A DNA stretch of 4,991 nt, from the sequence record AF208841.1; one strand, given 5' to 3'. Positions 3,551 through 4,330 of this stretch are shown piece by piece. The notes under the pieces are model-generated. The model had not been told where the DNA came from, searched no databases, and was given only the letters and a program-made list of their open reading frames with translations. Origin of the DNA: Escherichia phage AR1. A program made the translations under genes and the position numbers. The first letter of the stretch is position 1. Every line of letters starts with the position of its first letter.

Positions 3551-4330
3551 ATGGCAGTAACAGGACCGTGGGTAGGATCGTCTGCAGTAGTTAATACAGG
3601 ACAAAATTGGATGGTCGGTGCGGCCCAACGATTAAGAATGGGTGCTCCATTTTGGATGAGTAATATGATAGGTAGATCTGTTGAAGTAATTCATACACTT
3701 GGAGCAGACCATAACTTCAATGGTCAATGGTTCCGAGATAGATGTTTTGAGGCAGGTAGTGCACCTATAGTGTTTAATATTACTGGAGATTTAGTATCAT
3801 ATTCTAGAGATGTTCCTTTATTCTTCATGTACGGAGATACACCTAATGAATACGTTCAACTGAACATACACGGCGTAACGATGTATGGTCGTGGTGGGAA
3901 TGGTTGGGCCGCTTGTGCAATTGGGGCATCTGATGGCGGTGTATGTATCCAGAATGATATAGGTGGACGTCTGCGAATTAATAATGGCGGAGCTATTGCC
4001 GGTGGTGGCGGTGGCGGCGGTGGTTATTCACAAGCCAACAACTGGGCGGGAAAATATGTTTGTGGTGGCGGTGGCGGTCGTCCATTCGGCTTAGGCGGAA
4101 ATAATGGTGCTCGATGGCCTGGTGGTAATGCTAGTTTGACGTCTCCGGGTGCTGGCGGTAATACTGGTACAAGGTATTATGCAGGTGGAGGTGGTGAAGT
4201 TGGTCAGCCAGGACAATATGCTAATCCAGGTGCTAGTTATTCAACACCTCCGACAAGTCCTGGTGCTGCTGTAGCAGGATCAGCTCCAACATGGCAGAAT
4301 GTTGGAGCAATATATGGTCCAAGAGTATAA
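3551..4330 (+). CDS. 38: Long tail fibre tip adhesin gp38 (T2/S16-type receptor-binding protein), about 259 aa
   Basis: ORF directly downstream of gene 37. The N-terminal part ([13 protein letters not shown]...[38 protein letters not shown]) resembles the gp37-attachment domain of T2-type gp38 as I recall it. The C-terminal part holds glycine-rich motifs ([33 protein letters not shown]) separated by short variable segments, the architecture described for T2/S16 adhesins. I prefer the ATG at 3551 (good SD spacing) over the TTG at 3539 used by the ORF track. It is too long and too glycine-rich to be the T4-type gp38 assembly chaperone. Confidence 0.88.
4001..4078 (+). repeat. Tandem GGY glycine-codon tracts (8 Gly codons at 4001-4024 and 5 at 4064-4078) inside gene 38
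   Basis: Directly visible: ggtggtggcggtggcggcggtggt and ggtggcggtggcggt, i.e. near-identical GGT/GGC runs 40 nt apart encoding the first two glycine-rich motifs. Confidence 0.85.

What the first reader, a model, noticed from the sequence alone, without database searches (positions are those of the whole stretch)
3990..4327. gp38 receptor-binding domain: glycine-rich scaffold with variable loops as the host-range determinant
The C-terminal ~110 residues of gp38 alternate glycine-rich motifs with short non-glycine segments ([31 protein letters not shown], and the tail [43 protein letters not shown]). In T2/S16-type adhesins the glycine motifs form a polyglycine-II sandwich and the intervening hypervariable loops contact the receptor (outer-membrane porins such as OmpA, OmpC, OmpF, FadL or Tsx in known cases). 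These loops are therefore the part of the window most likely to be specific to this phage, and they predict its receptor.
Basis: partly seen in the sequence, partly recalled or inferred. Interest (0 to 1): 0.55.

Follow-up and report, generated by a model that had tools for sequence, protein, structure and literature searches.

The report
Phage AR1 gp38 tail-fibre adhesin domain

Summary
Window 3989-4327 encodes residues 147-259 of a 259-aa gp38 (ATG 3551, stop 4328-4330).

- Pfam GP38 adhesin match, E 2.6e-73.
- The AlphaFold2 model (pLDDT 92) overlays the crystal structure of the PP01 gp38 receptor-binding domain (PDB 9V85) at 0.6 A and S16 gp38 (6F45) at 2.7 A. No other PDB fold matches.

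Nothing here is new:
- The protein is letter-for-letter Swiss-Prot Q9G0B4 (GenBank AAG29755.1), gp38 of Escherichia phage AR1.
- The DNA is 99.7% identical to the AR1 genome.
- The literature gives AR1's receptor as OmpC.
- PP01 gp38 differs at 5 residues over 41-259 and has been crystallised, cross-linked to O157 OmpC loops 5 and 7, and mutagenised.

Three details are wrong:
- The sandwich starts upstream: residues 113-130, including hypervariable loop A at 3905-3922.
- The last 22 residues are conserved beta-strand, not a variable loop.
- The loops are shared by a clade, not specific to this phage. 39 phage records carry them at >=95% nucleotide identity, and loops B and C are invariant in 22 relatives. 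A gp37 segment is more AR1-specific.

S229, the only residue private to the window inside the span, is probably an error in the old record.

The parts
3551..4330 (+). Gene 38: receptor-recognising adhesin gp38, 259 aa plus stop.
   Evidence: ORF and translation. Pfam GP38 PF05268 E 2.6e-73 and Gp38_N PF21721 E 2.4e-21. Exact match to Swiss-Prot Q9G0B4 / AAG29755.1, phage AR1.
3551..3670 (+). N-terminal attachment domain (residues 1-40), which docks on the gp37 trimer tip. Lies outside the finding span.
   Evidence: Gp38_N matches residues 1-40. W7, W20 and W35 are invariant in the alignment with T2, T6, M1, S16 and PP01. In S16, three conserved tryptophans insert into gp37 pockets. The model shows helices at 8-16, 21-27 and 36-39.
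3887..3940 (+). First extension from the beta-helix (residues 113-130), with hypervariable loop A (W119-I124, window 3905-3922). It belongs to the polyglycine sandwich but lies outside the finding span.
   Evidence: G113, R114, G115, G116, G129 and G130 are invariant. Loop A identity is 0.06. Loop A is defined in the PP01 crystal structure. The S16 description says the beta5-beta6 extension forms PGII helices 1-2.
4001..4024 (+). Glycine-rich motif G151-G158 (an eight-glycine run), a long PGII helix of the scaffold.
   Evidence: Identity is 0.91 over 150-158. G152-G154 and G156 are invariant. The equivalent S16 helix 3 is 151-GGGGGGGG-158.
4025..4063 (+). Hypervariable segment [13 protein letters not shown] (159-171), containing loop B (Q161-V170, window 4031-4060).
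   Evidence: Identity 0.17 and entropy 2.8 bits. Identical in all 22 AR1/PP01-clade sequences. In PP01, residues 158-170 are essential; Y159A abolishes infection; Q161L, K168N and Y169G reduce it; K168 and Y169 are proposed to lie near LPS sugars. PP01 host-range mutants Q161H/R are reported.
4064..4099 (+). Glycine-rich motif [12 protein letters not shown] (172-183).
   Evidence: Identity 0.88. G175, G176, P178 and G180 are invariant.
4100..4117 (+). Loop C, NNGARW (184-189).
   Evidence: Identity 0.18. Invariant within the clade. Loop C is defined in 9V85. PP01 host-range mutant W189R is reported.
4160..4177 (+). Loop D, NTGTRY (204-209). R208 (4172-4174) was seen only in AR1.
   Evidence: Identity 0.14. 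Within the clade, positions 207, 208 and 210 vary: 208 is R in AR1 and G, A or deleted elsewhere. PP01 G208 cross-links to OmpC loop 5 but is dispensable; Y209 is essential.
4223..4243 (+). Loop E, NPGASYS (225-231), the main specificity loop. S229 (4235-4237) is private to this record.
   Evidence: Identity 0.12. PP01 loop E inserts into the cleft between OmpC loops 5 and 7; Y230 cross-links; A228 makes a hydrophobic contact. Position 228 is A, N, S or H within the clade. Position 229 is G in all 21 other sequences, including the AR1 genome.
4244..4261 (+). TPPTSP (232-237), a proline-rich replacement of the last glycine motif ('GGAAG' in most other gp38s).
   Evidence: Identity 0.08, while the homologues are glycine-rich at these columns. 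The alignment with T2, T6, M1 and S16 shows GGAAG/GGGAAG there.
4262..4327 (+). Conserved C-terminal 22 residues ([22 protein letters not shown]). They return to the beta-helix and are not a variable loop.
   Evidence: Identity 0.72. Strands at 241-243, 247-250 and 253-255 in the model. Trojet et al. describe a conserved motif at the C-terminal extremity.
210..3521 (+). Gene 37: distal long-tail-fibre subunit (1103 aa), whose trimer tip carries gp38. A C-terminal intramolecular-chaperone domain lies at residues 993-1052 (about window 3186-3365).
   Evidence: ORF. Pfam Peptidase_S74 E 1.1e-12 and Gp34_trimer. Annotated as gene 37 in AR1.

Best explanation
Window 3989-4327 encodes most of the receptor-binding domain of gp38 of Escherichia phage AR1. 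Gp38 is the adhesin that caps the gp37 trimer at the tip of each long tail fibre.

Proposed mechanism:
- The N-terminal 40 residues dock on gp37.
- A central beta-helix sends out two extensions, residues 113-130 and about 150-238.
- The glycine-rich motifs in these extensions pack as polyglycine-II helices into a rigid three-layer sandwich.
- Five short hypervariable loops (A 119-124, B 161-170, C 184-189, D 204-209, E 225-231) sit at the distal face and make reversible first contact with the host.
- The receptor is the porin OmpC of E. coli O157:H7. By analogy with the near-identical PP01 protein, loop E inserts into the cleft between OmpC extracellular loops 5 and 7, loops B and D hold loop E in position, and loop B may touch LPS sugars.

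What was shown here: gene identity, exact match to AR1 gp38, family membership, the conservation pattern, and the fold (by prediction and superposition).

What comes from the literature: OmpC as the AR1 and PP01 receptor, and the PP01 contact residues.

What is inferred: that AR1 gp38 uses the same docking mode as PP01 gp38.
For: - Exact sequence identity to Swiss-Prot Q9G0B4 / AAG29755.1, 'Receptor-recognizing protein gp38, Escherichia phage AR1'.
- Window DNA is 99.7% identical to the AR1 genome AP011113.1 over all 4991 bases, with the gene order 36-37-38-t.
- Pfam GP38 E 2.6e-73 and Gp38_N E 2.4e-21.
- Sequence matches to PDB 9V85 (PP01 gp38 RBD, E 7.8e-140; 5 differences in residues 41-259) and 6F45 chain D (S16 gp38, E 8.7e-53).
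- The AlphaFold2 model has pLDDT 92 and pTM 0.84. It superposes on 9V85 at rmsd 0.6 A (TM 0.96) and on 6F45_D at 2.7 A. No other PDB chain scores below E = 1.
- Glycine motifs are 0.88-0.91 conserved; loops are 0.06-0.18.
- AR1 is listed among phages that use OmpC as receptor, citing Yu et al. 2000, J Bacteriol 182:5962.
- For PP01: a 2.1 A crystal structure, cross-links G208 to OmpC loop 5 and Y230 to OmpC loop 7, and mutagenesis of Y159, K168, Y169, Y209, A228 and Y230. All of these residues except G208 are present in the window protein.
- Natural variation within the clade concentrates at loop D (207, 208, 210) and the tip of loop E (228), the loops mapped to the OmpC interface.
Against: - No experiment on AR1 gp38 itself could be read. 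Yu et al. 2000 and Liao et al. 2011 are not in the held library, so OmpC for AR1 rests on secondary citation.
- AR1 has R208 where PP01 has the cross-linking G208. The window record also has C122 and S229, next to the key residues A228 and Y230. The docking geometry could therefore differ slightly.
- The PP01-OmpC complex is a restraint-guided model, not a solved complex.
- PP01 host-range mutants can infect an ompC-null strain, so OmpC is not the only possible route for this adhesin type.
Confidence: 0.95

Rival explanations
1. gp38 here is only an assembly chaperone for gp37, as in phage T4. It would be absent from the virion, and the gp37 tip itself would bind the receptor.
For: The gene sits in the same position (between 37 and t) as T4 gene 38.
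Against: There is no sequence similarity to T4 gp38 (BLASTP E = 18). The Pfam matches are the adhesin families only. The fold equals the S16 and PP01 adhesins. The T4 RefSeq note itself says the T2-subfamily 'gp38' is the unrelated adhesin. The gp37 here ends in a Peptidase_S74 intramolecular chaperone domain.
Confidence: 0.01
2. The adhesin loops recognise LPS sugars or another surface molecule as much as OmpC, so OmpC alone does not explain AR1 host range.
For: PP01 loop-B residues K168 and Y169 (both present here) are proposed to lie near LPS sugars, and waaJ/waaI mutants mimic their substitution. PP01 gp38 mutants Q161H/R and W189R infect an ompC-null O157 strain. One paper describes AR1 as lysing many E. 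coli serogroups and other enterobacteria.
Against: The LPS evidence is indirect, and OmpC abundance was also lower in the LPS mutants. Wild-type PP01 needs OmpC-O157 with its GVIN motif. AR1 is cited as OmpC-dependent and as very specific to O157:H7.
Confidence: 0.25
3. The two residues private to this record, C122 in loop A and S229 in loop E, are genuine variants of an AR1 stock that change receptor specificity. They would not be sequencing errors.
For: Both lie in receptor loops. S229 sits between A228 and Y230, which matter in PP01.
Against: At 12 of the 16 positions where the window differs from the AR1 genome, the window stands alone against the AR1 genome and seven relatives. These include 3914 and 4235, two adjacent-base swaps (TA/AT at 1411-1412, CG/GC at 3387-3388), and a 2-base loss inside a G+C hairpin, where gel compression is a typical cause. 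All 21-22 other clade sequences have G122 and G229.
Confidence: 0.1

Closest known systems
gp38 of Escherichia phage AR1 (Swiss-Prot Q9G0B4 / GenBank AAG29755.1; genome version BAI83267.1 in AP011113.1)
   Same: Identical over all 259 residues to Q9G0B4. Same gene order 36-37-38-t. DNA is 99.7% identical to the AR1 genome.
   Different: No difference from Q9G0B4. The complete-genome version has G122 and G229 instead of C122 and S229. The genome also has 2 extra C in the 37/38 intergenic hairpin.
gp38 of Escherichia phage PP01 (PDB 9V85; Terasaki et al., mBio 2026, PMC12892980)
   Same: 259 aa, 94% identical overall. Loops B and C are identical, and the same Y159, K168, Y169, Y209, A228 and Y230 are present. 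The model superposes at 0.6 A. The receptor is OmpC of E. coli O157.
   Different: Five differences in residues 41-259, window residue first and PP01 residue second: C122G, R208G, S229G, S236N and P257S. The N-terminal 40 residues are more diverged (79% nucleotide identity).
gp38 of Salmonella phage S16 (PDB 6F45 chain D; Dunne et al. 2018)
   Same: Same three-domain architecture and polyglycine-II sandwich. 46-50% identity. Glycine motifs and the three N-terminal tryptophans are conserved. The receptor is also OmpC, of Salmonella.
   Different: All five distal loops differ in sequence and some in length. S16 keeps the 'GGGAAG' motif where AR1 has TPPTSPG.
gp38 of T2, T6 and M1 (the classical Henning and Krisch adhesins)
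   Same: Same family and the same GRM/HVS layout. Identity is 49%, 64% and 67%.
   Different: The hypervariable segments are unrelated in sequence. BLASTP alignments to many such homologues stop at about residue 145, covering 55-56% of the query. Their receptors differ. From my own knowledge, not tested here: T2 uses OmpF/FadL, T6 uses Tsx, M1 uses OmpA.
gp38 of phage T4 (tail-fibre assembly chaperone)
   Same: Same gene name and the same position between 37 and t.
   Different: Unrelated sequence (E = 18), 183 aa, and not part of the virion.

Membership tests
T2/S16-type gp38 tail-fibre adhesin (Pfam PF05268 GP38 + PF21721 Gp38_N) | Sequence matches the family profiles above the curated thresholds. 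| tested here: met
   GP38 scores 246.9 bits (cut-off 25), covering 45-259 against the whole 218-position profile. Gp38_N scores 75.9 bits, covering 1-40.
T2/S16-type gp38 tail-fibre adhesin (Pfam PF05268 GP38 + PF21721 Gp38_N) | N-terminal attachment domain with three conserved tryptophans that insert into gp37 pockets. | tested here: met
   W7, W20 and W35 are invariant across AR1, PP01, T2, T6, M1 and S16. Each lies at or beside one of the three N-terminal helices of the model (8-16, 21-27, 36-39). The feature is defined. Actual binding to gp37 was not tested.
T2/S16-type gp38 tail-fibre adhesin (Pfam PF05268 GP38 + PF21721 Gp38_N) | Central beta-helix with two extensions that fold into a three-layer polyglycine-II sandwich. 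| tested here: met
   The template-free AlphaFold2 model (pLDDT 92) superposes on 9V85 at 0.6 A over 216 columns and on 6F45_D at 2.7 A over 263 columns. No other PDB fold matches. This is a prediction. The solved structure is of a protein 98% identical over the domain.
T2/S16-type gp38 tail-fibre adhesin (Pfam PF05268 GP38 + PF21721 Gp38_N) | Conserved glycine-rich motifs alternating with hypervariable segments. | tested here: met
   Across 79 homologues, motifs are 0.88-0.91 identical and loops A-E are 0.06-0.18. The layout is as described by Trojet et al..
T2/S16-type gp38 tail-fibre adhesin (Pfam PF05268 GP38 + PF21721 Gp38_N) | Encoded directly downstream of gene 37, whose product ends in an intramolecular chaperone domain, and upstream of holin t. 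| tested here: met
   gp37 at 210-3521 with Peptidase_S74 at residues 993-1052; gp38 at 3551-4330; Phage_holin_T from 4361.
T2/S16-type gp38 tail-fibre adhesin (Pfam PF05268 GP38 + PF21721 Gp38_N) | Present in the virion as a monomer capping the gp37 trimer. | not testable with these tools
   Known for S16 from the crystal structure. No virion data can be generated here.
OmpC-binding gp38 subgroup (AR1/PP01 type) | The AR1/PP01 set of loop sequences A-E. | tested here: met
   Loops B and C are identical to PP01. Loops A, D and E each differ from PP01 at one residue. The same RBD type occurs in 53 phage records from E. coli and Shigella hosts.
OmpC-binding gp38 subgroup (AR1/PP01 type) | Adsorption depends on OmpC of the host. 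| not testable with these tools
   Literature only: AR1 (citing Yu et al. 2000) and PP01.
T4-type gp38 assembly chaperone | Sequence similarity to T4 gp38 (NP_049864.1). | tested here: not met
   BLASTP E = 18, 6 of 29 identities. No chaperone family appears in the Pfam scan.

The most novel reading that the evidence does not exclude
AR1-specific R208 in loop D, together with natural variation at residue 228 at the tip of loop E (A/N/S/H across the clade), could tune which OmpC alleles are accepted. Small loop differences, rather than the shared loop set, would then explain why AR1 is reported as O157:H7-restricted while close relatives infect Shigella or K-12. If C122 and S229 were real, this record would represent a further specificity variant.
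Probability: 0.12. Interest if true: 0.25.

Novelty: already known. Interest (0 to 1): 0.08.

Why it matters
gp38 adhesins are the main handle for reprogramming T-even phage host range. The AR1/PP01 type is used for detection and biocontrol of E. coli O157:H7. This particular sequence adds nothing new: it is a reviewed Swiss-Prot entry, its receptor is published, and a 98%-identical domain has a crystal structure and a mapped OmpC interface. The useful outcome is a correct annotation with loop coordinates. It also gives a warning that two loop residues in this old record (C122, S229) are probably errors.

Tried and rejected
- Tested whether the loops are the most phage-specific part of the window. 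Equal-length (338 nt) megablast queries gave 39 records at >=95% identity for the span (3990-4327), 83 for gp38 3652-3989, 6 for gp37 2900-3237 and 36 for gp37 600-937. A nine-sequence alignment (the window, the AR1 genome and seven close relatives) gave 94.3% for the span against about 90% for gp37 among the seven relatives. The claim was rejected at the level of individual phages. It holds only at the level of the family: full-length coverage of the span occurs in 48 records, against 135-139 for the gp37 segments.
- Looked for other functional elements around the gene. There was no Rfam family, no T4 late-promoter TATAAATA on the + strand and no terminator-like site by the simple scan.
- The T4-type chaperone reading was rejected.
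- The primary AR1 papers could not be read: Yu et al. 2000 (PMC94728) and Liao et al. 2011 (PMC3126482) are not held.
- No gp37-gp38 or gp38-OmpC complex prediction was possible, because the structure tool is monomer-only.

Full report
**What is in the window.** The window carries four genes:
- the 3' end of gene 36 (1-201);
- gene 37 (210-3521, 1103 aa);
- gene 38 (ATG 3551 to stop 4328-4330, 259 aa);
- the start of the holin gene t (from 4361).

Pfam assigns them as follows:
- gp38: GP38 adhesin (E 2.6e-73) plus Gp38_N (E 2.4e-21);
- gp37: a Peptidase_S74 intramolecular-chaperone domain at residues 993-1052;
- the last ORF: Phage_holin_T.

The mechanical ORF list starts gene 38 at TTG 3539. 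The ATG at 3551 is the real start. It follows GGAGG at 3541-3545 and matches the annotated start in AR1 and PP01.

**Checking the observation.** The span 3990-4327 covers residues 147-259. Position 3990 is the second base of codon 147, and 4327 is the last sense base.

Glycine makes up 36 of 113 residues in the span, against 22 of 146 in the rest of gp38. There are runs of 8, 5 and 4 glycines.

The alternation is also evolutionary. I aligned the window protein with 78 homologues taken from the 175 hits of the protein search. Mean identity to the window sequence was:

| Segment | Residues | Identity |
|---|---|---|
| Glycine motif | 150-158 | 0.91 |
| Glycine motif | 172-183 | 0.88 |
| Loop B region | 159-171 | 0.17 |
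| Loop C | 184-189 | 0.18 |
| Loop D | 204-209 | 0.14 |
| Loop E | 225-231 | 0.12 |

Many homologues align by BLASTP only over the first 55-56% of the protein. This shows the same thing from another angle.

There are two errors.
1. The last 22 residues (238-259) are conserved (identity 0.72) and are modelled as beta-strands. The long 'tail' is therefore a hypervariable stretch (about 222-237) followed by a conserved C-terminus.
2. The glycine scaffold starts upstream of the span. Residues 113-130 hold invariant glycines and a fifth hypervariable loop at 119-124 (window 3905-3922), with identity 0.06. The S16 authors describe two extensions from the beta-helix: a short one forms polyglycine helices 1-2 and a long one forms helices 3-10. 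The PP01 structure names this upstream loop 'loop A'.

**Identity of the sequence.**
- The whole window is 99.7% identical to Escherichia phage AR1 (AP011113.1, 154184-159176), with 16 differences.
- The gp38 protein is exactly Swiss-Prot Q9G0B4 / GenBank AAG29755.1, 'Receptor-recognizing protein gp38, Escherichia phage AR1'.
- The AR1 complete-genome version differs at two residues: it has G122 and G229 where the window has C122 and S229.
- At 12 of the 16 differing positions the window stands alone against the AR1 genome and seven relatives.
- Those 12 include both protein-changing sites in gp38, two adjacent-base swaps, and a 2-base loss inside a G+C hairpin.
- This pattern fits old gel-read errors in the original locus record. 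I infer the record is the one that accompanied Yu et al. 2000.

**Fold.** The protein matches two solved structures by sequence:
- 9V85, the sfGFP-fused PP01 gp38 receptor-binding domain: E 7.8e-140, 5 differences over residues 41-259;
- 6F45 chain D, S16 gp38: E 8.7e-53.

A template-free AlphaFold2 model built on my alignment has pLDDT 92 and pTM 0.84. It superposes on 9V85 at 0.6 A (TM 0.96) and on 6F45_D at 2.7 A. Nothing else in the PDB scores below E = 1.

**Mechanism.**
- Literature on S16 shows a monomeric gp38 capping the gp37 trimer through three conserved tryptophans. It has a five-ring beta-helix and a three-layer lattice of ten polyglycine-II helices, with five distal loops.
- W7, W20 and W35 are invariant in my alignment.
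- For PP01, Terasaki et al. (mBio 2026, PMC12892980) solved the domain at 2.1 A and defined loops A-E.
- They cross-linked G208 (loop D) to OmpC loop 5, and Y230 (loop E) to OmpC loop 7.
- They showed that Y159, Y209, A228 and the conformation around Y230 are needed.
- They proposed that K168 and Y169 lie near LPS sugars.
- All of these residues except G208 are present in the window protein.
- AR1 is cited as an OmpC-dependent phage.
- The best explanation is therefore that AR1 gp38 binds O157 OmpC through loop E, supported by loops B and D. The docking mode is inferred from PP01, not shown for AR1.

**Is the region specific to this phage?** No.
- By tblastn, this type of domain occurs in 53 phage records from E. 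coli and Shigella hosts, 30 of them at >=95% amino-acid identity.
- With equal-length nucleotide queries, 39 records match the span at >=95% identity. Only 6 records do so for gp37 2900-3237.
- Across seven close relatives the span averages 94.3% nucleotide identity, against about 90% for gp37.
- Within the clade, loops B and C are invariant.
- Clade variation sits at 207/208/210 in loop D, 228 at the tip of loop E, and 236, 254 and 257.
- R208 was seen only in AR1. In PP01, position 208 tolerates deletion or alanine.
- The loops define a clade-level receptor type, as Trojet et al. and Lutz et al. describe for other gp38 groups.

**Comparison with known systems and verdict.**
- The protein is a member of the T2/S16-type gp38 adhesin family on every feature I could test.
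- It is unrelated to the T4 gp38 chaperone (E = 18).
- Its hypervariable segments differ from those of T2, T6, M1 and S16.
- They are identical to AR1's, by definition, and nearly identical to PP01's.
- The finding is correct and already known. Interest is low.

Noticed in passing
window 3527-3546 (37/38 intergenic region): A C(UUCG)G-type hairpin lies between genes 37 and 38. The window reads GGGGCTTCGGCCTT. The AR1 genome and seven relatives all read GAGGGGCTTCGGCCCCTT, with 2 more C. The predicted stability is -6.4 kcal/mol in the window against -14.1 in the AR1 genome. The G4507 record annotates this site as a terminator. The window's 2-base loss looks like a sequencing compression artefact.
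   Followed up: yes
window 6, 9, 664, 1355, 1411-1412, 3387-3388, 3536, 3914, 4235: At 12 of the 16 positions where the window differs from the AR1 complete genome, the window stands alone against the AR1 genome and seven relatives. These include the adjacent-base swaps TA/AT and CG/GC. They change gp37 at R152Q, I401N and R1060A, and gp38 at C122G and S229G (window residue first). They are probably errors in the older database record.
   Followed up: yes
window about 3186-3365 (gp37 residues 993-1052): gp37 ends in a Peptidase_S74 intramolecular-chaperone domain (E 1.1e-12). This implies that the C-terminal ~110 residues are cleaved off after trimerisation, before gp38 caps the tip. The cleavage site was not examined.
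   Followed up: no
window 4244-4261 (gp38 residues 232-237): In the AR1/PP01 clade the last glycine-rich motif of most other gp38s ('GGAAG') is replaced by the proline-rich TPPT(S/N)P. Proline-rich sequence can adopt the same extended left-handed helix, so the lattice may hold a polyproline-type strand here. I did not inspect coordinates.
   Followed up: partly
window 2900-3237 and 601-750 (gene 37): Some gp37 segments are more AR1-specific than the gp38 loops. Segment 2900-3237 is >=95% identical in only 6 phage records. Windows 3001-3150 and 601-750 average 78% and 82% identity among seven close relatives, which suggests mosaic exchange within gene 37.
   Followed up: partly
window 3551-3670 (gp38 residues 1-40): The N-terminal gp37-attachment domain is only 77-79% identical at the nucleotide level to PP01 and JY01, although the rest of gp38 is 91-98% identical to them. 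This suggests a recombination joint near residue 40, possibly co-varying with the gp37 tip.
   Followed up: no
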